A stretch of DNA of 64,000 nucleotides from Pseudomonadales bacterium (GTDB taxonomy: Bacteria > Pseudomonadota > Gammaproteobacteria > Pseudomonadales > Azotimanducaceae): NCBI GenBank assembly GCA_046582185.1, contig JAYGEX010000033.1, positions 168 to 64,167 on the forward strand. The letters are read 5' to 3'. This document shows positions 21,626-31,844 of this stretch, in pieces (positions within the stretch are counted from its first letter, which is position 1; the number at the start of each line of letters is the position of its first letter). The notes beneath the pieces are model-generated. The model was not told the DNA's origin. It worked only from the letters and a program-made list of their open reading frames with translations, and searched no databases. A program made the position numbers and the translations under genes.

Positions 21626-21705
21626 AACCCTCGTTTCGCTCGTTCAGCTTCTGTTCAACATTGGTCGAATATTCTGTTCTTCATTACGCGATGAGGGACA
21701 GAAAA

Positions 21706-22485
21706 ATGAAGCAAACACTCTTAGGATTAAACGACCCTGCCGCCAGAAACGACCCGCATAAGCTTCCGGGATTCCATCGCCCCAATGACCATTATTCGAA
21801 ATACCATTGTTCGGAATACACGGCACAGTTAGAAAGCCACTCATCGCGCTCAGGTTCAATACTCGGCAGCTTGTGCATGGTCACCTTTCTCTGCTTTTCT
21901 GTCAGCGCCTATGCCGATCATGGCCAGTCCAGGGGAAATTCATACTACACCTACGGGCAGGTCCTTGAAGTAGAACCAAACTATGTTCACTCAATCGAAT
22001 CAGTGCCTGAAAAGTCATGCACGCAAGTTCAGGTACGACAGACTCACCACAGACCTCACAGAAGAAGAGATGAAGGCACACTAATCCCATCTTTACTTGG
22101 AGGATTGCTTGGCGGGGTAATTGGCCACCAATTCGGCGGCGGCAATGGCAAGACGGCCCTCACGATTCTCGGCGCTTTCGCCGGTTCGAAAATCGCAAGC
22201 AGCAGCAACCATCATCACCAACATGATAGACATTCACAGGCGCGAGTCCGTGAACATTGCACCATCGTAGAGAGATGGGTTGAGACCACAAGAATCAAAA
22301 ACTATTCAGTGACCTATCGTTACAAGGGCAATGTGTTTACCAAAACAACACCTGAAAATCCCGGATCGCGAATCCGAATTCGTGTCCAGGTAGACCCTGT
22401 AGACAACTTGCTGGCACAAAACGATTCTCGTCAAAACTACTCTCGTCAAAACAACAGACGCTATACCTCTGGCAACACCTACTAA
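21706..22485 (+). CDS. glycine-zipper (Rick_17kDa_Anti/SlyB-like) envelope protein; start uncertain
   Basis: LIPSLLGGLLGGVIGHQFGGGNGKTALTILGAFAGSKIA Gly-zipper flanked by Cys-containing beta segments (YGQVLEVEP...C ; C.IVERWVE...YSVTYRYKGNVFT....PG.RIRIRV). ATG 21706 has GAGGGA upstream. The hydrophobic leader LCMVTFLCFSVSAYA sits ~55 aa in, so a later start (21877) is possible. Confidence 0.6.
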   Translation: MKQTLLGLNDPAARNDPHKLPGFHRPNDHYSKYHCSEYTAQLESHSSRSGSILGSLCMVTFLCFSVSAYADHGQSRGNSYYTYGQVLEVEPNYVHSIESVPEKSCTQVQVRQTHHRPHRRRDEGTLIPSLLGGLLGGVIGHQFGGGNGKTALTILGAFAGSKIASSSNHHHQHDRHSQARVREHCTIVERWVETTRIKNYSVTYRYKGNVFTKTTPENPGSRIRIRVQVDPVDNLLAQNDSRQNYSRQNNRRYTSGNTY

Positions 22486-22511: not shown

Positions 22512-23330
22512 ATGAAAGTTTATCTCACCCCTCACAGCCTCGCGAGTATCCTGCTGGCACTCAGCATTACAGGGACTGCAATGGCATCGCCAACAGGTCC
22601 GATAATGCGCCTGTTTCCAACCACTGTTCTGGAAGACATTCGTGAAACCAGCCTGGTGGCAGAAGAAATGGAAAACAATATTCAGGATGTGATTTCCCGG
22701 TTAGATCTGCAGCAACAGCTTTATAACGAATCTCACTGCGCTGGTGCAGATGAAGATCCAGGTTGCGAACGCATCGCCAAGCAAATCGGCGCTACCTATC
22801 TTGAGATGCTCGACATGATGACCAAGAAGTTACCAGACATGGAGCGAGCCGTAAATAATACGCGCAGCAGCCTGGAGAAACGCCTCAAAGTAGAATTAGG
22901 GCAAAAATCAACGCCAACCAGTCTGCAAAACTTACTATTAGGCAAGGTCGCCCAGAGCAAACCTACCGACAAACCAATGGCCCTGCGAGGTCGATCCGGC
23001 ATTCGACTCTCTGACCGCTTTAAGGAGTATTACGACCTCGTTGCCACTCGAAAGAACGGCGCAAATCAATCATTGGCAGTTATCGCATCCGATATCTATC
23101 TGGACATGGACGAGGCCGCCCGCCTTATCGCCGCGACCCAGGAAGAGATAAGCCGCGCAACCTTAATGGAACAGCTGAATCAATCCTTCGGACAAATCAC
23201 CCCGGAAATGTCCGAGGTCGTGAATGGAGTGAAGACTATTTTGTTCGGTGAGAATCTCGGCGATTCGCCCATCGCATCAGCCCCGTTTTTAGCGGGTGAA
23301 ACACCTTACATCAGTCCACTGGAATTTTAA
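22512..23330 (+). CDS. secreted all-helical protein of unknown function (operon gene 1)
   Basis: AGGAG RBS, signal peptide MKVYLTPHSLASILLALSITGTAMA, heptad-rich Q/E/L sequence. No family recognised. Confidence 0.6.
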   Translation: MKVYLTPHSLASILLALSITGTAMASPTGPIMRLFPTTVLEDIRETSLVAEEMENNIQDVISRLDLQQQLYNESHCAGADEDPGCERIAKQIGATYLEMLDMMTKKLPDMERAVNNTRSSLEKRLKVELGQKSTPTSLQNLLLGKVAQSKPTDKPMALRGRSGIRLSDRFKEYYDLVATRKNGANQSLAVIASDIYLDMDEAARLIAATQEEISRATLMEQLNQSFGQITPEMSEVVNGVKTILFGENLGDSPIASAPFLAGETPYISPLEF

Positions 23331-23341
23331 GGAGAACTAAC

Positions 23342-23920
23342 ATGAACAAATCATTCATTAACAAAACCATCATGAATATGAGATACATTTACATTTTACC
23401 TTTCCTGATCCTCGCATCAACCGCAATTACGTCCTGTACTACTACTGAAGTCGTGGACAATTGCGCCATAAACCTGAAAGGTTCGTTAGACAATGCGATC
23501 TACATCGCAGAAAGAAAATTATCCAGCGGCTGCGAATATAGCTTCGACAACTATCTGGGCCAGCTTCTGGCTATCGCCGCAGACAATCCAAGCCCTGACA
23601 ATAAACGGTCGTTCAGCGATTTCCTGATTCGTGCCAGCGACAATGGCACCATCAGCAAACGCCAGGCAAAGTCTACCTACAATCGCTACTTCAACATCAA
23701 ATTTGTATCCCTTGCTGGTGAGTACAATACATGCTCCCAGACCTGCCCCAGCAAAGCAAAAGTCCTTGCGGCTATGCGGCTGGAACTAAGGGACAAGGAA
23801 CTTGGACTAGTCAAGGCGAGCGACGATACCGCTTCCTACTATCGGGCTGATCATCTTCTGAAGGAAGTTGAATTGGTATTGGAAGCAACCTGTCGTGCTT
23901 GTGAAGCAGGCAGTTTGTAA
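23342..23920 (+). CDS. Cys-rich lipoprotein of unknown function (operon gene 2)
   Basis: AAGGAG 7 nt upstream. Lipobox ..LILASTAITS|C, plus six further Cys. Confidence 0.6.
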   Translation: MNKSFINKTIMNMRYIYILPFLILASTAITSCTTTEVVDNCAINLKGSLDNAIYIAERKLSSGCEYSFDNYLGQLLAIAADNPSPDNKRSFSDFLIRASDNGTISKRQAKSTYNRYFNIKFVSLAGEYNTCSQTCPSKAKVLAAMRLELRDKELGLVKASDDTASYYRADHLLKEVELVLEATCRACEAGSL

Positions 23921-24555
23921 TGGCTTCCGGCGTGGCGAGCTACATGGGGGGAGCCATTGCCGGTTTTGCAATGGGCCTACTCGCCATGCTGGTTTATTTA
24001 CCCTGGGAGGAGGTAGACCTGCTAGAAAGCATCAGCACCTGGCTGGTTCTAAACATGGGCCAATCAATTTGGCCATTTGGCACGGTACTTCTACTCTATA
24101 GCACTAATCTAATAAAACTAAGACGGCTCATCTCCGATAATGCTGCCTACAAGCATATCGTGCAACTGGATCAACTCAGCGATGTCTGGATTCATCTGTT
24201 TATAGGCATCGGTGTCATTTGGACTGCAATCGGAATGCGCAGTGCACTTTCCACCACCCTTGATTCTCCGGATGCACTCACGAATGGCGCTGGAGAAATA
24301 CTCTCTCGACTCGTTGATGGCGGCATTCTCCTGGCGCTTACAACAACAATTGTCGGCGCTATCGGCGGCTACCTTATGCAATTGACGAAGACATTTTCCC
24401 TGGGTGCGAGCCTTACCGGTTATTACCACGATGAAGAGCGCGGTGAGTTCAACATCTTGCTTGATCGCATTGGCAACATCGAATCACTGCTTTGCGAAGG
24501 ACCGCAGGTAAGCAGCAAAGCTGATGAGCGCGAGGCTTTAGCAGAAAATGCGTAG
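23920..24555 (+). CDS. MotA/TolQ/ExbB-family proton-channel-like protein, short form (operon gene 3)
   Basis: TAATG overlap. Three hydrophobic spans. LFIGIGVIWTAIGMRSAL ... DGGILLALTTTIVGAIGGYLM parallels ExbB/TolQ IGLLGTVWGIM ... GIAEAL.ATAIGL.AAIP. Confidence 0.6.
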   Translation: MASGVASYMGGAIAGFAMGLLAMLVYLPWEEVDLLESISTWLVLNMGQSIWPFGTVLLLYSTNLIKLRRLISDNAAYKHIVQLDQLSDVWIHLFIGIGVIWTAIGMRSALSTTLDSPDALTNGAGEILSRLVDGGILLALTTTIVGAIGGYLMQLTKTFSLGASLTGYYHDEERGEFNILLDRIGNIESLLCEGPQVSSKADEREALAENA

Positions 24556-25366
24556 GCACACTACCCACAAGCAACTTAATACCGCCGGACTTGAGGCCGA
24601 TGTAATGAGGTTTATGGCCATAATTGCCTTTTGCCTAATCGCCATTATGGCGCTGGTAAAAGATGTAGAGCCTCAGCTAGGTGTAGAGCCTCAGCCCGAT
24701 GTAAAGTCTCAGTCCGAGGTAACGACTGAAGCAATAGAAGATAGCAGTCATGAACCAGAGCCAAGCCTTGAATTAGTAACTGTTGTAAAGGCGCAAAAGC
24801 CATTAAAGCCTGAAGCAAAAACCTCTACCCAAGCAGTGAAGATTGGGAGCACGCGTGAGCGCACTTCAATATTATCAGCACCAGATATTTCAATACCAAT
24901 GCGTTCGCAAGTCATCGCCAATCATGACAATACAGTACAACCGGCATCAGTGAACGTGGCAGCCGAAGAGCAGCTCGAAGAAAGGGAAGAAGCGCTGACA
25001 TTTAGGTTTGACTCTGACTCAACCTTTATCCACCTGATAGGAAGTAAAAAGCTAAAACTTTTCGCCAGCACTCATGGCGCTTATCTTGAGATGGATGACA
25101 GGTTTAATGTCACCTCTTCCAGCCCCTCAGGGGAACTGTTTGAAATCATGAAGCAGTCCATTCCACGCACCATCACGACTATTTTTGAAAGGGAGTCAGG
25201 GTTTCACAAAGTGGATAGCTCACTAATTTACCTTGTCGCACTGTCGAAACGAACCAGGAATGACCTCGATCATTTCCTTGGCGCTAGTAACTCCAGGCAC
25301 AAAAAAAACCTGAACTCCGGCGTACTTGTAATCCATCAGGATGGACACATTAGTCATGAAACATAA
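24548..25366 (+). CDS. MotB/ExbD/TolR-like single-TM protein with Pro/Glu-rich linker and unknown C-terminal domain (operon gene 4)
   Basis: 8-nt overlap with the channel gene. GLEADVMRFMAIIAFCLIAIMALV places an Asp at the cytoplasmic end of the TM, as in MotB (YADFMTAMMAFF) and ExbD (IDVMLVLLIIF). A VEPQ-rich linker follows, then ~130 aa with no recognised fold. Confidence 0.5.
   Translation: MRRHTTHKQLNTAGLEADVMRFMAIIAFCLIAIMALVKDVEPQLGVEPQPDVKSQSEVTTEAIEDSSHEPEPSLELVTVVKAQKPLKPEAKTSTQAVKIGSTRERTSILSAPDISIPMRSQVIANHDNTVQPASVNVAAEEQLEEREEALTFRFDSDSTFIHLIGSKKLKLFASTHGAYLEMDDRFNVTSSSPSGELFEIMKQSIPRTITTIFERESGFHKVDSSLIYLVALSKRTRNDLDHFLGASNSRHKKNLNSGVLVIHQDGHISHET
24662..24715 (+). repeat. 18-bp in-frame tandem repeat x3 encoding DVEPQL/GVEPQP/DVKSQS
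   Basis: GATGTAGAGCCTCAGCTA / GGTGTAGAGCCTCAGCCC / GATGTAAAGTCTCAGTCC. Confidence 0.85.
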
Positions 25367-25460
25367 GAACAACCATGCGTTGAGCCATGCAAGCAACTAT
25401 CGGGCCATCTCTAACACTATCTATAATGCCAAAACCATCTCTAAAACTATCTCTAAAGTT

Positions 25461-26762
25461 ATGAAGGCATATGTATTTGGCTTGCTAATTTCCCTGCCGA
25501 CGATGCTCTACGCCGGGACTGTGATCGAAGGAGATCTCGGTGATTGGCTGGTTCAGGATGCAGCCCCAAAATTGAGTGAGGTGCTAACTCGCCATCCCCG
25601 ATTTAAGGGAAAGGCAATCAAAGTAACAGCAATGGAAGATGGATATCCTATCGAAGTCAGTGATGAGCTCACCCGACAGATCAAGGCACAGCTGGTGGAA
25701 AGCCTGTTATCCAACCCCGAAGTCAAAATTGTCTTTGGCGACAGTAACAGATGCCAACCCATCTCTGTGGATACGGTTCTTGGTATAGACGTGAACAAGA
25801 GATCCAACAATCGTTATCATGTCTCGATTGCCATGGTGGATATCGAGGAAGGTATCTGGCTGAGCGGTACCAATATTTCCTGGCAGGGTCGAGTCACGCC
25901 ACGTCAGAATCGCGCCTTTAATACTGCTTTTAGCAGCAGGGTTAACCAGCGACTATTTTCCAAAACTCAAAGTCGGGAAATTTCTGATTCACTGTATCTG
26001 CAGCTGCAATGTGGCGTTGAGATCCTCTCGCCGGTATATTTCAAGCCAGGAATTGATGGCACGAATTCAGAAGTACTTCGCTTGCTACAATCCCGGCTCG
26101 CCAACAACATGTCTACGACGCTTAATTTACGCGAAGCCGTTTCAGTTATCGGTATACAGGGTAAATCCAGGCAAAGCACCGGAAACGACTTTTATACCCT
26201 TGCCGTCACCTTATCTACGGCTGAAGACCCCGAGCAGGTACACCGTATCGCCGAAGTGAAAATTACCGGCAACACATTGCAACTTGCTCGAAATAATCCT
26301 GCAATTCCTGCAACAAGTAATCTGCTCTCTGATATCGGCATCGTCACAAAAAACAAGAGAGATGCACATTGCGGCCGTCGAGACAAACACTGCGTGGACA
26401 TAAGTTTCAAATTAAACGAAGCAGCTTATACCGTGCTGTTCTATTCCATCGGTGGCTATCTTGAGCCCCTGAATTGCGAGACGCCTCGCCGACAGAGAGC
26501 AGGCACTCAGCGTTATGGCTTGAAAATACCCAATAGTAATTCACCACTTGCGCCCAGCGTCGGCTTTTATGTTCTCGCCTTTAGGGATAAAGCAATCGCC
26601 GGACGAGTGAACAGAGTTCTGGCGAGCGGCGCAAAAAGTTGCAACCCACACGGCAAACGGCAACTCACTTCCTTTACCGACCTGCTGCAGCAGAACATTC
26701 ATCGTCTGGACTGGAAGGCGATCCACTTGAGCCGTTACAACAAGAGAATCATAGAATTATGA
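25461..26762 (+). CDS. 433-aa secreted protein of unknown function (operon gene 5)
   Basis: Signal peptide MKAYVFGLLISLPTMLYA. Alternative starts at 25356/25341 overlap the upstream gene. The C-terminal VDISFKLNEAAYTVLFYSIGGYLEPL...GFYVLAF is faintly DUF4384-like (unverified). Confidence 0.55.
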   Translation: MKAYVFGLLISLPTMLYAGTVIEGDLGDWLVQDAAPKLSEVLTRHPRFKGKAIKVTAMEDGYPIEVSDELTRQIKAQLVESLLSNPEVKIVFGDSNRCQPISVDTVLGIDVNKRSNNRYHVSIAMVDIEEGIWLSGTNISWQGRVTPRQNRAFNTAFSSRVNQRLFSKTQSREISDSLYLQLQCGVEILSPVYFKPGIDGTNSEVLRLLQSRLANNMSTTLNLREAVSVIGIQGKSRQSTGNDFYTLAVTLSTAEDPEQVHRIAEVKITGNTLQLARNNPAIPATSNLLSDIGIVTKNKRDAHCGRRDKHCVDISFKLNEAAYTVLFYSIGGYLEPLNCETPRRQRAGTQRYGLKIPNSNSPLAPSVGFYVLAFRDKAIAGRVNRVLASGAKSCNPHGKRQLTSFTDLLQQNIHRLDWKAIHLSRYNKRIIEL

Positions 26763-27397
26763 AAATATTCATTGGTATTGTACTTGGGCTCGTCATATCT
26801 GTTGGCCTCATGTCTATTCCCAAGTCTCGCCTCATGGTGCTCGGTACGCTTGCACAGCTGCGAGCTATACAACTGACCAGTTCCATAACAGCAAACGCCA
26901 AAACGGCAGACCCTGTGCTAACGGTTCCTGGGACAGCGATCCCTGAGACAGAAAAAGGTATCAGCGACATAAATATTTTGGACACAGGTATTTTCGAAAA
27001 AGACATTGTCAACAGGGCCATTAGCAAGGTTGCCACCAGCGAACCACTGGACGATGAACTCCCGGCCTTCAGGCACAATCAGGCGCCTGAAGGCCGACTA
27101 ATGCAGAGTCAAAAAGACAATTTTTTTGAGCGGGAAACCAACAATGTTATCGAGCTGCAAACCGAATTCTTTCAGGTGGTATGGACTCCATTCAGGAGCC
27201 AGATGTCAGCCCAGGGTTTTGCAGAAAAGCTGCAACGACAACTAGACCATGAATTTGTAATCATCAAAAGAGGGCCGGGAAAATATGAGGTCGGTTTCCA
27301 CTTCACGTCGGATGCCGCACGCTCTGATGTCCTCGATGCCATCGTTAACCTGACAGGATTCGCTTCCTCCAATCCACCCAGGGTCGTCCAATTGTGA
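26759..27397 (+). CDS. TM-anchored SPOR-domain (peptidoglycan-binding) protein (operon gene 6)
   Basis: ATGA overlap, N-terminal TM MKIFIGIVLGLVISVGLMSI. C-terminal FFQVVWTPFRSQMSAQGFAEKLQRQLDHEFVIIKRGPGKYEVGFHFTSDAARSDVLDAI fits the SPOR beta-alpha-beta-beta repeat pattern. Confidence 0.6.
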   Translation: MKIFIGIVLGLVISVGLMSIPKSRLMVLGTLAQLRAIQLTSSITANAKTADPVLTVPGTAIPETEKGISDINILDTGIFEKDIVNRAISKVATSEPLDDELPAFRHNQAPEGRLMQSQKDNFFERETNNVIELQTEFFQVVWTPFRSQMSAQGFAEKLQRQLDHEFVIIKRGPGKYEVGFHFTSDAARSDVLDAIVNLTGFASSNPPRVVQL

Positions 27398-28095
27398 AAA
27401 ATTTAACAATGATCCTGCTATTGATGATTCTGTCTGCCATGGCATCGGCATCGGGAAAAAATTACCCCTATATGGCATGTTTTGAAGTTGCCAGTCGTGC
27501 GCACGATATTGATCTTGACCTCTTGCTCGCGGTAGCAGCCGTAGAAAGTAACTGGAATGCCACGGCACGATCTGCTGCTAATGCACATGGGATAATGCAA
27601 ATTCGGTGGCCCCAAACCGCCAGGCATCTTGGCTCGAGGCGAGTGGCTGAACTCTATAATCCCTGCCTGAATATTGATCTGGGCGCACGATATATGCATG
27701 AACTGTCCCAGCGCTACAATGGCGATGTGCAGCTAATGCTTGCCGCATATAATTACGGACCCACTCGAATACAGACCATCGAAGACGTTCCCACAGGCGT
27801 GAATGCGTACGTTGAAAAGGTCAGTCGCAGGAGAAGCGAAATCTCTCGAAGCTTAAGAGCTTCAAACCCTGCTCATGCAAGCGATCGCATGGAGCTCTCA
27901 AGATTCCATAGCCTGAGTCGAGCTCAACATTACATGAAATCATTCGAACGTCTGGTTCCCGACATAGAGCTGTCGATTGAACACAGGAGAAATCAAAACA
28001 TCATTTATCTGGATAGCCGTAATCTTAGCGCTCAAGCGCTCTATCGCATCGGTGTGTTAATTCCGGAATTTGGAAATGGAGATAATAATCAATGA
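27394..28095 (+). CDS. lytic transglycosylase, SLT (family 1) domain, secreted (operon gene 7)
   Basis: GTGA overlap, signal peptide. LLLAVAAVESNWNATARSAANAHGIMQI (catalytic Glu in VES, GxMQ) and AAYNYGP. Confidence 0.85.
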   Translation: MKNLTMILLLMILSAMASASGKNYPYMACFEVASRAHDIDLDLLLAVAAVESNWNATARSAANAHGIMQIRWPQTARHLGSRRVAELYNPCLNIDLGARYMHELSQRYNGDVQLMLAAYNYGPTRIQTIEDVPTGVNAYVEKVSRRRSEISRSLRASNPAHASDRMELSRFHSLSRAQHYMKSFERLVPDIELSIEHRRNQNIIYLDSRNLSAQALYRIGVLIPEFGNGDNNQ

Positions 28096-28433
28096 AATTT
28101 TCCTTACTGGCACTACTTTGGGCATTGCTCATCCCTGCCGCCGCCTTCGCTGCAGAATTTTACGGAGAGGCTCAAGTCACAGGCTCGGTGCCCATATTGA
28201 AAACTGTCCAGAACCGTGAACAACGAGAAAACTGTCCGGCTATTAAGCCAACTAACGGCGGCCTGCTGGCGATGATCAACTGGGATCTGGCTAATCGTGA
28301 CTGTACAAAAGTGACCAGCAGACAAGTCATCAGCGCTTACAGGGTGAGTTATTTCTGGGACGATCAGAATTTCACCCGGATTTTTGCCAAACCTCCCGGC
28401 AATACAGTGCCCATCAAAATTTCAATTGATTAG
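28092..28433 (+). CDS. small secreted beta-rich protein, zipper-less paralog of the 21706-22485 product (operon gene 8)
   Basis: ATGA overlap, signal peptide. FYGEAQVTGSVPI...C ... C.KVTSRQVISAYRVSYFWDDQNFT.....PGNTVPIKISI aligns with YGQVLEVEPNY...C ... C.IVERWVETTRIKNYSVTYRYKGNVFT.....PGSRIRIRVQV. Confidence 0.6.
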   Translation: MKFSLLALLWALLIPAAAFAAEFYGEAQVTGSVPILKTVQNREQRENCPAIKPTNGGLLAMINWDLANRDCTKVTSRQVISAYRVSYFWDDQNFTRIFAKPPGNTVPIKISID

Positions 28434-29183
28434 GCTAACTTCCTTAATTTCCAGCAATTCCACTTCAAATATCAGCACAGCATTAGGCGGGATACCTCGC
28501 GTGCCTCCAGGGCCATAACCTAGCTCCGAGGGGATCACAAAGCGTGTCTTGCCACCCACCCGCATCAGTTGCAAACCCTCGGTCCAGCCGGCAATAACCT
28601 GATTGAGGCCAAATTCTGCGGGGGTACCACGCTTTATGGAACTATCAAACACCTTTCCGCTGATCAGCTGGCCTTCATAGTGAACAACCACCTTGCTCTC
28701 GGATTTTGGCCGAGCGCCCTTACCTTCTACAAGAGTTTCATACTGCAATCCCGATGATGTTGTTTTAACGTTTGGCTTCAATGCATTTTCAGCAAGATAG
28801 ACCTTGCCCTGCCCAATACCCTCAGCGGCTATCCTGTTACGTTCATTTTCCTTCTCTTCCTTAAGTGCTTGTTGTCGCAAACGAATCTCCTTAACGACAC
28901 CCTGTTGCTGTTCAGGCTCTAGATTGGGAAGTTCTCCGGCGATGGAATCATTTAGCCCCTGCAACAACATTTCAAGGTTAACGTCTGTATTACCACCTTC
29001 TTTGAGCATATTTCCAAAGGAATATCCAAAGAAATAGCCACGCTCATTCTTCAAGCTGGTATCCGCAGCCGCGGGCTCAGCGGGACTTTCTTCTGCCCAG
29101 ATGGGGTAAGAAGACATTAAACAAATAAGCACTAAGCCATTGATTATTAATGATTTACTATACATCGGCAAAAAGTTCCACAA
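28422..29183 (-). CDS. periplasmic FKBP-type peptidyl-prolyl isomerase (FkpA/FklB-like)
   Basis: Signal peptide, FKBP_N-like helical part, then VVHYEGQLISGKVFDSS...GLNQVIAGWTEGLQLMRVGGK..FVIPSELGYG...IPPNAVLIFEVELLEI. Its 3' end overlaps gene 8 by 12 nt (convergent). Confidence 0.9.
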   Translation of the reverse strand: MWNFLPMYSKSLIINGLVLICLMSSYPIWAEESPAEPAAADTSLKNERGYFFGYSFGNMLKEGGNTDVNLEMLLQGLNDSIAGELPNLEPEQQQGVVKEIRLRQQALKEEKENERNRIAAEGIGQGKVYLAENALKPNVKTTSSGLQYETLVEGKGARPKSESKVVVHYEGQLISGKVFDSSIKRGTPAEFGLNQVIAGWTEGLQLMRVGGKTRFVIPSELGYGPGGTRGIPPNAVLIFEVELLEIKEVSLIN

Positions 29184-29537: not shown

Positions 29538-31844
29538 ATGAACTACCCGTCGAACAACAGCATTGCTTCCTTCATGAAGTCGATTCAACCGCGATCGCAC
29601 CGCGGCCTGCTACAAGCTAGTCTGCTGACCATACTCGCACTTTCATCAAGCCTAAGCAGTGCCACAGTCCGCAGTGAGCGCGCTGCTCCGCTTGAACCCA
29701 TGGCGATCCACCGGCAAACAACCCGTAACATCGTTGATGCACTTGCCAGCCGGCACTACATTGCCACACGGCTGGACGACGACCTTTCGGATCGTATCTA
29801 TCAGGCTTATATCATCGATCTGGACCCAAGCAAGAGTTACCTGTTGGCGGATGATATCGCTCTCTTTGAAGTCAATCGGTTTGAGATGGACAACGCACTA
29901 CGCAAAGGCAATCTTAGCCCGGCATTCGATATTTTTAATCGCTACCACGGGAGAGTCATTGCACGATTCCAGAACATCATTGCGATGCTGGAAGAAGGTG
30001 TCGATCAGTTCGATTTCAGCATCGATGAAACCCTCGAATTAGATAGAGAAGATGCAGCCTGGGCAGTCAATGAAGAGGAGCTAGACGACCTGTGGCGCAA
30101 GCGAATCAAAAATGCAGTGCTGAATTTAATGCTTTCAGACAAAGAGCAGGAGAAAATTCAGGAGTTATTACTAAAACGATACAAGAATCGCCTCACCAGA
30201 ACGCTTCAGACAAACAGTGAAGACGTCTACCAGCTTTACATGAATTCATTCACGAAAACTTACGACCCACACACACAATATTTTTCACCAAGAACCAGTG
30301 AAAATTTTAATATCAATATGAGCTTGTCCCTGGAAGGCATAGGTGCAGTACTGCAACTGGAAGATGAATATACCAAAGTAGTCAGCCTTGTTCCTGCGGG
30401 CCCCGCGGCAAAATCAAAGCAAATTTCACCGGATGATAGAATAATCGCAGTAGGCCAGGATAAGCACGGCGAGATGGTAGACGTCATTGGCTGGCGTCTG
30501 GACGAGGTTGTTCAGCTCATCCGCGGCAAGAAAGGCACTATTGTACGGTTGGATATTATTCCGGCTGCCGATAAAAATGGCTCCCAGTCCAGAATCATTC
30601 ATATCACCAGGAATAAAGTTAAGCTGGAAGAACAATCAGCCAAGTCTGAAATCATTGAGATCGAACAGTTTGGCCATACGCGAAAGATAGGCGTCATCGA
30701 TATTCCAACCTTCTATATAGACTTCAAGGCTTTACAGCAGCACGACAGAAATTACAAAAGTACCACACGAGATGTTAAGAATCTGCTGATAGATTTAATA
30801 GCCGAAGGCGTGGACGGTGTTGTCATTGACCTACGAGACAACGGCGGCGGATCGCTGCAGGAAGCAAAGACACTAACAGGTCTGTTCATCGACAGGGGCC
30901 CTACAGTACAGATTCGAAGTAAGAGTAATCGACTCGATATATTAAACGACACAGATATCAGTACAACTTACGACGGGCCACTGGCAATTCTTGTAAACAG
31001 ACTCAGTGCCTCAGCCTCTGAAATTTTTGCTGGCGCAATTCAGGATTATGAACGGGGGCTTATCATTGGCTCACAGACATTTGGCAAGGGCACAGTTCAA
31101 TCACTGCAACCTCTCAACCGCGGCCAGCTTAAGCTGACACAGGCAAAATTCTATCGCATCAGCGGAGAAAGCACGCAACACAGAGGCATCATTCCCGACA
31201 TTGCTTATCCTTCCAATTATGACCCAGAGTCCATAGGCGAGAGTACTCTCGACAATCCCCTGCCCTGGGATGAAATCCTGCCGACCGGATTCCGTTCAAA
31301 AAATGCAATCGATAATCACCTTGAAGAGTTGATTTCCCTTCACCAAGAAAGAGTCAAAGTTGATGCAGATTTTACTTATCTAAAAGAGGCTATTGCATAT
31401 AGAAAAACAAGAAGCCTTGAAACACGCGTCAGCCTTAATGAAAAAACCAGGAAGGAGAAAAAGCAAACATCCGACGATTTCTGGCTTGCCCTGGAGAACA
31501 AAAAGCGTGTTGCTCAAGGCAAGGCGATGATCGATTCCCTTGATGATCTCGACAACGATGAGCCTGCCGTTGCCGCTGCGCCCAAACCATCCAGTGGTAT
31601 CGCACCTGCTGCCGAAAGTGCCGAGGGAAGCGATGAACTCACAGGCAACGAGATGGCTGTGGTTGTTGAAACTCCAATATTGGTTGAAACTCCCCTATTG
31701 GAAAGCGACTCATTTGAGGATGTGGAAAAAGATGAGAAGAAGGCCCCTGACGCTTATCTCATTGAGACCCGTAATATTCTTCTGGATCTAATCTCGATGA
31801 AGCATCGTACTGCCGCTAAAGCCTCCGGCAAGAAATCGACTTAA
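29538..31844 (+). CDS. prc: tail-specific (C-terminal processing) protease, S41A
   Basis: 768 aa. PDZ region (LEGIGAVL...), DLRDNGGGSL, RLSASASEIFAGAIQDY, GKGTVQ. Acidic low-complexity C-terminal tail. An alternative start at M13 (29574) gives a cleaner signal peptide. Confidence 0.9.
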   Translation: MNYPSNNSIASFMKSIQPRSHRGLLQASLLTILALSSSLSSATVRSERAAPLEPMAIHRQTTRNIVDALASRHYIATRLDDDLSDRIYQAYIIDLDPSKSYLLADDIALFEVNRFEMDNALRKGNLSPAFDIFNRYHGRVIARFQNIIAMLEEGVDQFDFSIDETLELDREDAAWAVNEEELDDLWRKRIKNAVLNLMLSDKEQEKIQELLLKRYKNRLTRTLQTNSEDVYQLYMNSFTKTYDPHTQYFSPRTSENFNINMSLSLEGIGAVLQLEDEYTKVVSLVPAGPAAKSKQISPDDRIIAVGQDKHGEMVDVIGWRLDEVVQLIRGKKGTIVRLDIIPAADKNGSQSRIIHITRNKVKLEEQSAKSEIIEIEQFGHTRKIGVIDIPTFYIDFKALQQHDRNYKSTTRDVKNLLIDLIAEGVDGVVIDLRDNGGGSLQEAKTLTGLFIDRGPTVQIRSKSNRLDILNDTDISTTYDGPLAILVNRLSASASEIFAGAIQDYERGLIIGSQTFGKGTVQSLQPLNRGQLKLTQAKFYRISGESTQHRGIIPDIAYPSNYDPESIGESTLDNPLPWDEILPTGFRSKNAIDNHLEELISLHQERVKVDADFTYLKEAIAYRKTRSLETRVSLNEKTRKEKKQTSDDFWLALENKKRVAQGKAMIDSLDDLDNDEPAVAAAPKPSSGIAPAAESAEGSDELTGNEMAVVVETPILVETPLLESDSFEDVEKDEKKAPDAYLIETRNILLDLISMKHRTAAKASGKKST

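What the first reader, a model, noticed from the sequence alone, without database searches (positions are those of the whole stretch)
22512..28433. Eight-gene, translationally coupled envelope operon built around a MotA/ExbB-like channel, with none of the usual partners
The sequence shows eight same-strand ORFs with almost no spacing. The junctions are an 11-nt gap carrying AAGGAG (23330/23342), a TAATG 1-nt overlap (23920), an 8-nt overlap (24548/24555), ATGA (26759), GTGA (27394) and ATGA (28092). Only 25366->25461 may be open.
Every product has a signal peptide, lipobox or TM segment. In order they are:
- a helical periplasmic protein
- a Cys-rich lipoprotein
- a short MotA/ExbB/TolQ-like channel
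- a MotB/ExbD-like TM protein with a Pro/Glu linker
- a 433-aa periplasmic protein
- a TM-SPOR protein
- an SLT lytic transglycosylase
- a small beta-rich protein
Known stator-type motors (MotAB, ExbBD-TonB, TolQRA-Pal, GldLM, AglRQS, ZorAB) come with a recognisable output module. I see none here: no TonB C-domain, TonB-dependent receptor, TolB/Pal, OmpA-like domain, flagellar or gliding genes, and no nuclease or helicase.
My inference is a PMF-driven trans-envelope machine anchored to peptidoglycan in trans via SPOR and inserted with its own glycan-cutting enzyme. Its output is unknown.
Basis: partly seen in the sequence, partly recalled or inferred. Interest (0 to 1): 0.85.

Follow-up and report, generated by a model that had tools for sequence, protein, structure and literature searches.

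The report
Orphan nine-gene stator-like envelope operon
This is a tightly packed, strongly conserved nine-gene cell-envelope operon found only in uncultured marine and sediment Gammaproteobacteria; seven of its nine proteins match no known family, and two of them weakly resemble the proton-driven motor pair of the Tol, Ton and flagellar systems, so it may be an undescribed envelope machine.

Summary
Eight same-strand ORFs with the stated overlaps exist at 22512-28433. A ninth gene (glycine-zipper protein, 21877-22485) belongs to the unit. The order g0-g8 recurs in essentially all 83 related loci, drawn from 366 species genomes (the best 80 are all MAGs), while flanks differ. It is absent from plasmid and phage records.

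Only two domains pass curated thresholds: SLT (g7, catalytic Glu-Ser invariant) and Rick_17kDa_Anti (g0). The MotA/ExbB label for g3 is suggestive but unproven:
- No window hit; Pfam MotA_ExbB is subthreshold in 4 of 45 family members (best E=0.0056).
- hhalign against a PDB-verified MotA/ExbB/TolQ core gives P=0.0026 in the functional register, exceeded by 0 of 200 shuffles.
- TolQ, ExbB and ZorA crowd the top of the Foldseek list, non-significantly.

g4 has an invariant Asp (75/75) at the cytoplasmic end of its single TM helix, as in ExbD, TolR and MotB. Its periplasmic domain is a confident model with no solved relative. SPOR for g6 remains unproven. g8 is a paralogue of the g0 C-terminal domain.

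Best reading (about 0.5): a Tol/Ton-like, PMF-driven trans-envelope system acting on peptidoglycan or the outer membrane. No published description was found.

The parts
21877..22485 (+). g0: secreted or outer-membrane glycine-zipper protein with a C-terminal beta domain.
   Evidence: Pfam Rick_17kDa_Anti E=3.8e-7, 30.4 bits against cut-off 24.2. The same gene lies directly upstream of g1 in L001, L002 and L003 and in 68 of 83 loci. A 26-nt gap containing GGAG precedes g1. The start at ATG 21877 was chosen by orthologue length and signal peptide; the mechanical ORF starts at 21661.
22512..23330 (+). g1: secreted, mostly helical 272-aa protein. It is the most conserved component, and its function is unknown.
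   Evidence: Signal peptide ...TGTAMA/SP. 67% mean column identity, about 100 invariant columns and 2 invariant Cys across 33 diverse orthologues. No Pfam, NCBIfam, PADLOC or PDB match. At least 1,758 homologues, all 'hypothetical' from MAGs or metagenomes. Absent from plasmids and phages.
23342..23920 (+). g2: Cys-rich lipoprotein, probably in the outer membrane.
   Evidence: Lipobox ...AITS-C in the window and L-x-x-A-A-C in the consensus. 7 invariant Cys including the lipobox Cys; 59% mean column identity. No family or PDB match. AAGGAG lies 8 nt upstream of the ATG.
23920..24555 (+). g3: 4-TM inner-membrane protein with a long C-terminal cytoplasmic helix. Candidate very distant MotA/ExbB/TolQ-like 'A' subunit.
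   Evidence: AF2 model pLDDT 85.6, four TM helices plus helix 124-210. Invariant G-V-x-W-T-A-x-G-M-R and G-G-I-L-x-A-L-x-x-T-I-x-G motifs. Pfam MotA_ExbB subthreshold in 3 of 35 members and in P0253 at E=0.0056, 16.9 bits against cut-off 22.9. hhalign against a MotA/ExbB/TolQ core: score 24.8, P=0.0026, 0 of 200 shuffles as high. TolQ, ExbB and ZorA crowd the Foldseek list at E>=0.37. No significant hit in the PDB by profile or in hhalign against the 3-sequence profile.
24548..25366 (+). g4: bitopic protein made of an N-in TM helix with an invariant Asp, a hypervariable Pro/Glu/Ala-rich linker, and a conserved about 120-aa alpha/beta periplasmic domain of unknown fold. Candidate 'B' subunit and transducer.
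   Evidence: L15, D18, V19, M20, R21 and F22 are invariant in 75 of 75 orthologues. Protein length varies from 194 to 375 aa because of the linker. The TM aligns to ExbD/TolR/MotB at the Asp register, P=0.042, 8 of 200 shuffles as high. C-domain AF2 model pLDDT 82.9, pTM 0.75, with no PDB or BFVD structural relative (best E=0.28 and 0.085). No ExbD, MotB or OmpA profile hit. 8-nt overlap with g3.
25461..26762 (+). g5: secreted 433-aa periplasmic protein with conserved Cys and Trp. Function unknown.
   Evidence: Signal peptide MKAYVFGLLISLPTMLYAG. Invariant C98, D127, W133, W141, G143, C304, C311 and W418. No Pfam, NCBIfam or PDB match, either whole or split in halves. In other genomes it overlaps g4 by 17 nt.
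26759..27397 (+). g6: bitopic protein made of an N-terminal TM helix, a variable linker, and a about 75-aa beta-alpha-beta-beta-alpha-beta (RNP/SPOR-like) C-terminal domain.
   Evidence: Conserved W-x-P-F-x-S-x-x-S-A-x-G-F-A ... Y-x-V ... T-G pattern. Pfam SPOR is the top recurrent family but subthreshold (4 of 33 members, best E=0.011). hhalign against 4 PDB-verified SPOR domains is not significant (P=0.14, 12 of 150 shuffles as high). ATGA overlap with g5.
27394..28095 (+). g7: secreted lytic transglycosylase (SLT domain) with a about 100-aa C-terminal extension of unknown nature.
   Evidence: Pfam SLT E=3.6e-26, 91.5 bits against cut-off 21.3. NCBIfam murein transglycosylase families. Catalytic E51-S52 invariant in 60 of 60 orthologues. 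The tail has no Pfam hit and no SPOR similarity. GTGA overlap with g6.
28092..28433 (+). g8: secreted small beta-rich protein, a paralogue of the C-terminal domain of g0.
   Evidence: Signal peptide ...AAAFA/AE. hhalign of the g8 family against the g0 C-terminal domain: probability 99.2%, E=8e-20, 0 of 100 shuffles as high. tblastn cross-hits in L017, L030 and L065. ATGA overlap with g7.

Best explanation
A chromosomally encoded nine-gene operon, conserved in uncultured marine and sediment Gammaproteobacteria, that builds a trans-envelope complex organised like the Tol-Pal and Ton systems but made of unrelated or barely related parts.

Proposed mechanism:
1. g3 (4 TM helices) and g4 (one TM helix with an invariant Asp) form an inner-membrane, proton-conducting stator-type unit. 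They are very distant relatives or analogues of ExbB-ExbD, TolQ-TolR and MotA-MotB.
2. Protonation and deprotonation of the g4 Asp, facing the conserved Thr residues of g3 TM3 and TM4, drives a conformational or rotary cycle.
3. g4 is itself the transducer. Its hypervariable Pro/Glu/Ala linker carries a conserved C-terminal domain of a new fold across the periplasm to the secreted and outer-membrane partners: g1, the lipoprotein g2, g5, and the glycine-zipper proteins g0 and g8.
4. g6, a second bitopic linker protein with an RNP/SPOR-like domain, and the active lytic transglycosylase g7 tie the machine to peptidoglycan and open it locally.
5. The likely role is energised envelope maintenance or remodelling, that is outer-membrane/peptidoglycan tethering or glycan processing, as Tol-Pal does at the septum.

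Shown: the operon, its conservation, the envelope location of all products, SLT with an intact catalytic dyad, the glycine-zipper domain, the invariant TM Asp, the g0/g8 paralogy, and the new fold of the g4 domain.
Inferred: homology of g3/g4 to stator units, ion conduction, stoichiometry, physical contacts, and the physiological output.
For: Real, selected operon:
- Overlapping or near-abutting start and stop codons.
- The same nine-gene order in loci from many families with unrelated flanks.
- 366 species genomes encode g3.
- Absent from plasmids and phages.
- g1-g3 are under very strong constraint (67%, 59% and 46% mean column identity).

Stator-like pair:
- g3 and g4 overlap by 8 nt.
- g3 is a confident 4-TM model whose best Foldseek matches are TolQ (rank 1, E=0.37), ExbB and ZorA, about 21 of the top 50.
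- Pfam MotA_ExbB is the a-priori family and recurs subthreshold in 4 of 45 members, on the expected hairpin in P0253 (E=0.0056).
- hhalign of a 120-sequence g3 profile against 7 PDB-verified MotA/ExbB/TolQ cores gives P=0.0026. It aligns IGVIWTAIGM with IGLFGTVWGIM and GILLALTTTIVG with GIAEALIATAIG, the positions of TolQ T145 and T178. None of 200 column shuffles reaches that score.
- TolQ against MotA itself is only E=0.058 by phmmer, so HMMER silence is expected at this distance.
- g4 carries L-x-x-D-V-M-R-F invariant in 75 of 75 orthologues at the cytoplasmic end of its TM, aligned to the ExbD FIDVML register.

Transducer logic: the g4 and g6 linkers vary from 194 to 375 aa and from 127 to 247 aa total protein length, while their end domains are conserved. 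One g4 orthologue even hits Pfam TonB_N polyproline.

Peptidoglycan link: SLT at 91.5 bits with an invariant Glu-Ser; SPOR is the top recurrent subthreshold family for g6.

Energy source: no ATPase or other energy source is encoded in the operon.
Against: - No curated threshold is met for MotA_ExbB, ExbD, MotB, OmpA or SPOR.
- The g3 profile finds no TolQ, ExbB or MotA chain in the PDB at E<=10.
- The first hhalign, against a 3-sequence TolQ/ExbB profile, found nothing. The better result still has only 11.7% HH probability.
- All Foldseek matches are non-significant (TM<=0.34).
- g3 lacks the two Pro residues present in all seven reference A subunits in the alignment. It also lacks the large cytoplasmic domain between TM helices.
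- The g4 TM match is marginal (P=0.042). An acidic residue at a TM end is not unique to stators.
- The g4 periplasmic domain resembles no known B-subunit or transducer domain.
- No multimer model, no experimental data and no cultured host.
- g4 and g6 lengths do not co-vary (Spearman r=0.18, p=0.15).
Confidence: 0.5

Rival explanations
1. A passive (non-energised) peptidoglycan-remodelling and outer-membrane-tethering complex. g7 is the only catalytic part. g3, g4 and g6 merely anchor and position it in the inner membrane, and the secreted and lipoprotein components regulate or localise it. The resemblance of g3/g4 to stator units is convergent TM-helix composition.
For: Only SLT and the glycine-zipper domain reach significance. 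Every stator-related signal is subthreshold. g3 lacks the conserved Pro residues and the cytoplasmic domain of known A subunits. The g4 periplasmic domain has no B-subunit likeness.
Against: Mere anchors would not be expected to keep a TM helix invariant over 8 consecutive positions, including a buried Asp-x-x-Arg, in 75 of 75 genomes. Nor would they keep 41 invariant columns in a 4-TM protein. The best hhalign register coincides exactly with the functional Thr and Gly motifs, and none of 200 composition-matched shuffles scores as high. Independent methods (Pfam, hhalign, Foldseek) all point to the same superfamily.
Confidence: 0.3
2. A domesticated lysis-like or vesiculation module. g3 acts as a holin-like membrane protein, g7 as an SLT-type endolysin, and g4/g6 plus the lipoprotein g2 as a spanin-like inner-to-outer-membrane bridge. 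Together they are used for controlled envelope opening, for example vesicle release or programmed lysis.
For: The parts list superficially parallels a phage lysis cassette: a small multi-TM protein, a transglycosylase, bitopic periplasm-spanning proteins and an outer-membrane lipoprotein.
Against: No homologue of g1 occurs in 50,697 phage records or 72,556 plasmids. There are no phage genes in the flanks. Nine genes are kept in fixed order across hundreds of species, with housekeeping-like conservation. g7 has its own signal peptide, so it needs no holin. The g4 domain has no BFVD relative.
Confidence: 0.07
3. A Zorya-like anti-phage defence system in which a ZorAB-type stator senses envelope perturbation.
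For: ZorA appears among the weak Foldseek matches of g3 (8qyh_A, E=1.5). g3 has a long C-terminal cytoplasmic helix. The flanks are not conserved between distant genomes.
Against: PADLOC models give no hit for any of the eight proteins. There is no nuclease, helicase or other cytoplasmic effector, and all other products are exported. Conservation is far higher and more uniform than in arms-race genes. The cluster is present in 366 species rather than patchily.
Confidence: 0.05
4. A chance juxtaposition of unrelated ORFs, or spurious ORFs.
For: None beyond the lack of annotation.
Against: The order, strand and overlaps are conserved in 83 loci. Each protein family has invariant columns. There are thousands of homologues.
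Confidence: 0.01

Closest known systems
Tol-Pal system (TolQ-TolR-TolA-TolB-Pal-CpoB)
   Same: - One operon encoding a multi-TM protein followed by an overlapping bitopic protein with a TM Asp (the Q/R position).
- A further bitopic periplasm-spanning protein (the TolA position; g6, or g4 itself).
- A about 430-aa periplasmic protein (the TolB position, g5).
- Outer-membrane lipoprotein(s) (the Pal position; g2, g0) and a secreted helical protein (the CpoB position, g1).
- A functional link to peptidoglycan. From established knowledge, Tol-Pal is needed for septal peptidoglycan processing and outer-membrane constriction (review PMC7391070, found).
- TolQ chains are the top Foldseek hits of g3.
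   Different: - No component passes a Tol-Pal family threshold.
- There is no TolB beta-propeller, no OmpA-like Pal and no TolA domain III.
- g3 has 4 TM helices with a minimal cytoplasmic loop, against TolQ's 3 TM helices plus a cytoplasmic domain.
- The operon carries its own lytic transglycosylase and glycine-zipper proteins.
- The g4 periplasmic domain is a different fold.
ExbB-ExbD-TonB
   Same: - The g4 TM motif A-D-V-M-R-F-M-A-I-I aligns with ExbD I-D-V-M-L-V-L-L-I-I.
- Pro/Glu-rich rigid-linker logic, as in TonB. One g4 orthologue hits Pfam TonB_N.
- The G-I-x-x-A-L-x-x-T-x-x-G motif is shared between g3 TM4 and ExbB TM3.
   Different: - No TonB C-terminal domain and no TonB-dependent receptor nearby.
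- Here the Asp-bearing subunit itself carries the long linker. In Ton these are two proteins, ExbD and TonB.
MotAB / PomAB flagellar stator
   Same: - 4-TM topology of the A subunit, with N and C termini in the cytoplasm.
- Adjacent overlapping A and B genes.
- An invariant Asp at the cytoplasmic end of the B-subunit TM.
   Different: - No torque-generating cytoplasmic domain between TM2 and TM3 (about 25 residues in g3).
- No plug and no OmpA-like peptidoglycan-binding domain.
- No flagellar genes.
- The conserved MotA prolines are absent.
GldLM (type IX secretion / gliding motor)
   Same: A minimal A subunit combined with a B subunit that itself spans the periplasm and acts as the output shaft. 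This is a conceptual parallel to g4, drawn from established knowledge of GldLM.
   Different: No sequence or fold match to GldL or GldM appeared in any search. The taxa and partners are different.
ZorAB (Zorya defence)
   Same: A weak Foldseek match of g3 to ZorA. A long C-terminal helix on the A subunit.
   Different: No PADLOC hit. No ZorC, ZorD or ZorE effectors. All partners are periplasmic.

Membership tests
MotA/ExbB/TolQ proton-channel family (Pfam PF01618) | Profile match at or above the curated threshold (22.9 bits) | tested here: not met
   The window g3 has no hit at E<=1. The best family member, P0253, scores 16.9 bits, E=0.0056. 3 of 35 other members are subthreshold, best E=0.031. 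The g3 profile finds no TolQ, ExbB or MotA chain in the PDB.
MotA/ExbB/TolQ proton-channel family (Pfam PF01618) | C-terminal TM hairpin with the G-x-x-G-T-V-x-G and G-I-x-x-A-L-x-x-T-x-x-G motifs (pore-lining Thr residues) | tested here: inconclusive
   hhalign aligns the invariant g3 motifs to exactly these positions. Score 24.8, P=0.0026, probability 11.7%; 0 of 200 column-shuffled templates score as high. Invariance is shown. The result is suggestive but below the usual homology standard.
MotA/ExbB/TolQ proton-channel family (Pfam PF01618) | Conserved Pro before the penultimate TM motif and Pro in the last TM (present in all 7 reference sequences) | tested here: not met
   The reference alignment shows SP-Y/LP-A/AP-T and IP-A/SP-L/HP-F/LP-I/NP-M. 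g3 TM3 and TM4 contain no Pro in any of 35 sequences.
MotA/ExbB/TolQ proton-channel family (Pfam PF01618) | Fold similarity to solved A subunits | tested here: inconclusive
   TolQ is the rank-1 hit, and about 21 of the top 50 Foldseek hits are TolQ, ExbB or ZorA. However, E>=0.37 and TM<=0.34. Only a monomer model was used.
MotA/ExbB/TolQ proton-channel family (Pfam PF01618) | Adjacent gene for a single-pass partner with an essential TM Asp | tested here: met
   g4 overlaps g3 by 8 nt. D18 is invariant in 75 of 75 orthologues.
MotA/ExbB/TolQ proton-channel family (Pfam PF01618) | 5:2 (A5B2) assembly and ion conduction | not testable with these tools
   No multimer prediction or experiment was available.
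ExbD/TolR (Pfam PF02472) | Profile match; ExbD/TolR-type periplasmic domain | tested here: not met
   No Pfam or NCBIfam hit in the window copy or in 33 orthologues. The PDB profile search is empty. hhalign of the C-domain against ExbD/TolR gives P=0.55. The confident C-domain model has no ExbD or TolR Foldseek hit.
ExbD/TolR (Pfam PF02472) | N-in single TM with a conserved Asp near the cytoplasmic face (ExbD D25, TolR D23) | tested here: met
   A-D-V-M-R-F is invariant. It aligns to F-I-D-V-M-L at P=0.042, with 8 of 200 shuffles as high. The feature is met, but the statistics are weak.
MotB/PomB | C-terminal OmpA-like peptidoglycan-binding domain and plug helix | tested here: not met
   No OmpA or MotB_plug hit. 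No MotB or PomB among the Foldseek hits.
SPOR domain (Pfam PF05036), for g6 | Profile match at threshold; beta-alpha-beta-beta-alpha-beta RNP-like fold that binds denuded glycan | tested here: inconclusive
   It is the top recurrent Pfam family but subthreshold (4 of 33 members, best E=0.011). hhalign against FtsN, DamX, DedD and CwlC SPOR domains gives P=0.14. The secondary-structure-like conservation pattern is compatible. No structure was predicted for g6.
SLT lytic transglycosylase (Pfam PF01464), for g7 | Profile match and the catalytic Glu-Ser motif | tested here: met
   91.5 bits against cut-off 21.3. E51-S52 is invariant in 60 of 60 orthologues.
Glycine zipper 2TM / Rick_17kDa_Anti (Pfam PF05433), for g0 | Profile match at threshold | tested here: met
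   30.4 bits against cut-off 24.2. The same Pfam family is precomputed for the upstream gene in L001-L003.
Tol-Pal system | TolB beta-propeller, Pal OmpA-like lipoprotein, TolA domain III | tested here: not met
   No such Pfam or NCBIfam hits in any of the nine proteins or in the neighbours in L001-L003. The g5 profile finds no TolB in the PDB.
Ton system | TonB C-terminal domain; cognate TonB-dependent receptor | tested here: not met
   No TonB_C or TonB-dependent receptor hits. There is only a linker-composition hit to TonB_N in one g4 orthologue.
Zorya (ZorAB plus effectors) | ZorA and ZorB models; ZorC, ZorD or ZorE effector genes | tested here: not met
   PADLOC gives no hit for the eight proteins. 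No nuclease or helicase domains.

The most novel reading that the evidence does not exclude
g3/g4 define a new, deeply divergent family of ion-driven 5:2-type envelope motors. In it the Asp-bearing B subunit is itself a periplasm-spanning force transducer ending in a previously unseen fold. The motor works with a dedicated set of orphan periplasmic and outer-membrane proteins (g0, g1, g2, g5, g8) and its own lytic transglycosylase, coupling the proton-motive force to peptidoglycan or outer-membrane remodelling. That would be a functional class alongside Mot, Ton, Tol, Gld/Agl and Zor, so far confined to uncultured marine and sediment Gammaproteobacteria.
Probability: 0.35. Interest if true: 0.85.

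Novelty: new variant of a known kind. Interest (0 to 1): 0.62.

Why it matters
Ion-driven 5:2 motors (Mot, Ton, Tol, Gld, Zor) are the only known way for diderm bacteria to deliver energy to the periplasm and outer membrane. Each newly recognised family has revealed a new envelope process.

Recent surveys (PMC12505986, PMC12204202) start from proteins recognisable as MotA/ExbB/TolQ, so they cannot see a family like g3, which no Pfam, NCBIfam or PDB profile detects.

If g3/g4 is a motor, the operon offers three things:
- A compact, genetically self-contained system of nine genes with no external partners apparent.
- A new output architecture, with the transducer fused to the B subunit and a new fold at its tip.
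- A direct genetic link between such a motor and a peptidoglycan-cutting enzyme.

Even if it is not a motor, seven orphan protein families are conserved across several hundred species of abundant but uncultured marine and sediment Gammaproteobacteria. One of them, g1, shows about 67% mean column identity. Together they mark an unstudied, evidently important envelope function.

Tried and rejected
- Single-sequence Pfam, NCBIfam and PADLOC scans of the eight proteins returned only SLT.
- Domain-split Pfam scans of the g4 C-domain, both g5 halves, the g6 C-domain and the g7 tail returned nothing.
- Profile-HMM searches of the PDB sequence set for g1, g2, g3, g4, g5 and g6 gave no meaningful hit.
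- hhalign of g3 against a 3-sequence TolQ/ExbB profile found nothing. This was superseded by the broader test.
- tblastn for canonical TolQ, ExbB, MotA, ExbD and TolR in the window and in about 1 Mb of related loci found none. No in-house reference profile could be built that way.
- A viral-contig scan for TolQ/ExbB relatives found none.
- The transitive-homology route (full-database profile search, then Pfam on the divergent members) gave one subthreshold MotA_ExbB hit in 10 members.
- hhalign of the g4 C-domain against ExbD/TolR was negative.
- Foldseek of the g4 C-domain against the PDB and BFVD was negative.
- hhalign of the g6 and g7 C-terminal regions against verified SPOR domains was not significant.
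- The promoter and terminator scan found no excess over shuffles, so the operon boundaries rest on gene spacing and synteny only.
- Rfam found nothing in the window.
- The linker-length covariation test for g4 against g6 was not significant.
It was redone with database homologues.
- The phage-derived and plasmid-borne readings were rejected.
- The defence-system reading was rejected.

Full report
**1. The observation**

Reading the junctions base by base confirms each one:
- TAA/AAGGAG/ATG with an 11-nt gap (g1/g2).
- TAATG (g2/g3).
- An 8-nt ATG...TAG overlap (g3/g4).
- ATGA (g5/g6), GTGA (g6/g7) and ATGA (g7/g8).
- Only g4->g5 is open, by 94 nt. An alternative ATG at 25341 would close it, but it places 40 residues ahead of a good signal peptide.

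Every product starts with a signal peptide (g1, g5, g7, g8), a lipobox (g2) or TM segments (g3, g4, g6).

A consensus scan for promoters and terminators shows no excess over shuffled sequence. The boundaries therefore rest on spacing and synteny.

**2. It is a conserved unit, and it has nine genes**

- A search with g3 finds 2,943 homologues. All are named 'hypothetical' and none carries a Pfam domain. The window's own copy comes from a Pseudomonadales MAG.
- Gene neighbourhoods of two distant homologues show the same order with unrelated flanks. Both also have a glycine-zipper (Rick_17kDa_Anti) gene immediately upstream.
- A scan of one genome per species finds g3 relatives in 366 genomes. 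The best 80 are all MAGs: Pseudomonadales, Azotimanducaceae, Woeseiaceae, Ectothiorhodospiraceae and Sedimenticolaceae.
- tblastn of the nine window proteins against the 83 loci shows g0-g1-...-g8 in the same order and strand wherever the contig reaches far enough.
- The window's flanking genes recur only in the four closest loci.
- The window's upstream ORF, read from ATG 21877, passes the Pfam threshold for Rick_17kDa_Anti.
- g1 has no homologue in 72,556 plasmids or 50,697 phage records.

The cluster is thus a chromosomal nine-gene operon under selection as a unit, not a chance juxtaposition.

**3. What can be identified with confidence**

- Of the nine proteins, only g7 (SLT, 91.5 bits) and g0 (glycine zipper) reach curated thresholds.
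- g7 keeps the catalytic Glu-Ser in 60 of 60 orthologues.
- PADLOC finds nothing.
- Profile searches of the PDB sequence set for g1, g2, g4, g5 and g6 are empty.
- g1 is extraordinarily constrained: 67% mean column identity and about 100 invariant columns across orders. It has at least 1,758 homologues, all unnamed.
- g2 keeps seven invariant Cys. g5 keeps a set of Cys and Trp.
- A new result: g8 is a clear paralogue of the C-terminal beta domain of g0 (hhalign probability 99.2%, E=8e-20). The operon therefore begins and ends with the same domain.

**4. Is g3 a MotA/ExbB/TolQ-like protein?**

Formally it is not a detectable member:
- There is no Pfam or NCBIfam hit.
- The family profile finds no TolQ, ExbB or MotA chain in the PDB.
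- The family is small and sharply bounded: 232 representatives among 1.84 billion proteins, 198 of them below 1e-10, with no bleed into the very large MotA/ExbB superfamily.
- A first profile-profile comparison against TolQ x2 + ExbB gave nothing.

HMMER is at its limit inside this superfamily, however: authentic TolQ matches MotA only at E=0.058.

Four independent weak signals converge:
- (i) The AF2 model (pLDDT 85.6) has four TM helices and a long C-terminal helix. Its Foldseek list is headed by TolQ, and about 21 of the top 50 hits are TolQ, ExbB or ZorA, although none is significant (E>=0.37, TM<=0.34).
- (ii) Pfam MotA_ExbB recurs subthreshold in 3 of 35 members. In a divergent member, P0253, it reaches E=0.0056 on residues 71-159, the TM3-TM4 hairpin.
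- (iii) hhalign was run with a 120-sequence family profile against a core alignment of seven reference sequences checked against PDB entries. It scores 24.8 (P=0.0026, probability 11.7%). It aligns IGVIWTAIGM with IGLFGTVWGIM and GILLALTTTIVG with GIAEALIATAIG, that is, the invariant g3 Thr102 and Thr143 onto TolQ Thr145 and Thr178. None of 200 column-shuffled templates reaches that score (mean 12.2, sd 2.8, max 23.1).
- (iv) The next gene, overlapping by 8 nt, encodes a single-pass protein with an invariant TM Asp.

Against membership: g3 lacks the two prolines present in all seven references, and it lacks any sizeable cytoplasmic domain.

My judgement is that a very distant relationship is more likely than not (about 0.6-0.7), but membership is not demonstrated.

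**5. g4**

- The N-terminus L-(Q/E)-(A/T)-D-V-M-R-F-M-A-I-I-A-F-C-L-I-A-I is almost invariant. L15, D18, V19, M20, R21 and F22 are identical in 75 of 75 orthologues.
- The Asp sits at the cytoplasmic end of an N-in TM helix, as in ExbD D25, TolR D23 and MotB D32 (established knowledge).
- hhalign picks the same register (QADVMRFMAII against FIDVMLVLLII), but only at P=0.042, with 8 of 200 shuffles scoring as high.
- After the TM comes a hypervariable Pro/Glu/Ala-rich linker, so protein length ranges from 194 to 375 aa. A conserved domain of about 120 aa follows.
- That domain gives a confident AF2 model (pLDDT 82.9, pTM 0.75, mixed alpha/beta). The model has no structural relative in the PDB (best E=0.28, TM<=0.26) or in BFVD. 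It matches no ExbD, TolR, MotB, ZorB, TonB or TolA domain.
- By sequence it is also unrelated to ExbD/TolR.

So g4 combines an ExbD-like TM segment with a TonB-like spacer and a new terminal fold.

**6. g6 and the peptidoglycan link**

- g6 has an N-terminal TM helix without conserved polar residues, then a variable linker, then a domain of about 75 aa. That domain's conservation pattern reads as beta-alpha-beta-beta-alpha-beta.
- Pfam SPOR is the commonest subthreshold family (4 of 33 members, best E=0.011).
- hhalign against four SPOR domains verified against PDB entries is not significant (P=0.14).
- SPOR is therefore a reasonable but unproven label.
- The g7 C-terminal extension shows no SPOR signal.

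**7. Mechanism**

No ATPase or other energy-coupling protein is encoded in the operon. Every product other than the membrane proteins g3, g4 and g6 is secreted. The only candidates for energy input are therefore the strongly conserved membrane pair g3/g4.

The best-supported model is a Tol/Ton-like system:
- A g3-g4 proton-conducting unit sits in the inner membrane.
- Its Asp-bearing subunit is itself the periplasm-spanning transducer.
- It acts on the secreted and outer-membrane partners g1, g2, g5, g0 and g8.
- It works together with a peptidoglycan-associated bitopic protein (g6) and a lytic transglycosylase (g7).

The gene-by-gene layout parallels tolQ-tolR-tolA-tolB-pal-cpoB in logic, though not in sequence.

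The main rival is a passive peptidoglycan-remodelling scaffold in which g3/g4 are only anchors. The near-total invariance of the g4 TM segment and the coincidence of the g3 motifs with the functional register argue against it, but they do not exclude it.

Defence (Zorya-like), lysis-cassette and artefact readings are poorly supported.

**8. Novelty**

- Two recent surveys of MotAB-like and TolQR/ExbBD-like systems do not contain anything like this cluster (PMC12505986, PMC12204202).
- A full-text search combining lytic transglycosylase, SPOR, TolQ, glycine zipper and stator finds no description.
- Every homologue listed in three large protein searches is an unnamed MAG or metagenome protein.

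I rate it a new variant of a known kind, a stator-type envelope system with a new parts list. There is a real chance that it is either a new motor class or not a motor at all.

**9. Limits**

- No multimer modelling, no HHpred-scale profile library, no AFDB fold search, no whole-genome access and no cultured host were available.
- The key P-values come from single, hypothesis-driven comparisons with small reference profiles.
- The reference sequences were recalled from memory and then checked against the PDB. TolQ and the four SPOR domains matched exactly, and ExbD matched at all but one residue, which was corrected. E. coli ExbB matched over the aligned residues 8-202.
- E. coli MotA, TolR and MotB were not checked residue by residue. 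The PDB set holds no E. coli MotA, the TolR chains were matched by the ExbD query rather than by my TolR sequence, and MotB was not searched.

Noticed in passing
window 25405-25426 and 25435-25456: The only open intergenic gap of the operon (g4->g5) contains an imperfect 22-nt direct repeat with a 30-nt period: CCATCTCTAACACTATCTATAA and CCATCTCTAAAACTATCTCTAA. In other genomes g5 instead overlaps g4 by 17 nt. It could be a regulatory element, or the remnant of an insertion that displaced the g5 start.
   Followed up: no
window 28092-28433 and 21877-22485: g8 is a paralogue of the C-terminal beta domain of the glycine-zipper protein g0 (hhalign probability 99.2%, E=8e-20). The operon is therefore bracketed by two copies of one domain. 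g8 also gives a faint NCBIfam hit to PRK11280 (E=0.1).
   Followed up: partly
L075-L082 (Woeseiaceae, Ectothiorhodospiraceae and Sedimenticolaceae-type loci): In the most distant carriers, g0 is missing from its usual place upstream of g1. g0-like matches sit at the far end of the locus on the opposite strand in L077, L080 and L082. The core unit may therefore be g1-g8, with g0 a lineage-specific addition or relocation.
   Followed up: no
L011 (CAXPUI010000232.1): A contig binned as 'Candidatus Fonsibacter ubiquis', a freshwater SAR11-type alphaproteobacterium, carries the cluster with 53-65% identity to the window proteins. This is most likely a mis-binned gammaproteobacterial contig rather than a real alphaproteobacterial occurrence.
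   Followed up: no
window 28422-29183 (-) and 29538-31844 (+): The two genes downstream of the operon are a 253-aa minus-strand ORF and a 768-aa plus-strand ORF. By eye they read like an FKBP-type peptidyl-prolyl isomerase (FkpA-like) and a tail-specific protease (Prc-like); neither was profile-tested. They are shared only with the four closest loci, L004, L005, L008 and L016. Both would be envelope-quality-control genes, but the linkage is not conserved more widely.
   Followed up: partly
window 1-64000 and loci L001-L083: No canonical tolQ, exbB, motA, exbD or tolR homologue occurs anywhere in the 64-kb window or in about 1 Mb of related loci. No Rfam family reaches threshold in the window.
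   Followed up: yes
g4 orthologues (alignment A3; e.g. L067:7489-8475, L050:7574-8512): The g4 linker is highly plastic. Some orthologues carry tandem peptide repeats (for example KEPSAD x4 in L050) or a about 70-residue charged Arg/Gln/Ala-rich insertion (L067). Two hit Pfam Trypan_PARP and one hits TonB_N purely through Pro/Glu repeat composition.
   Followed up: no
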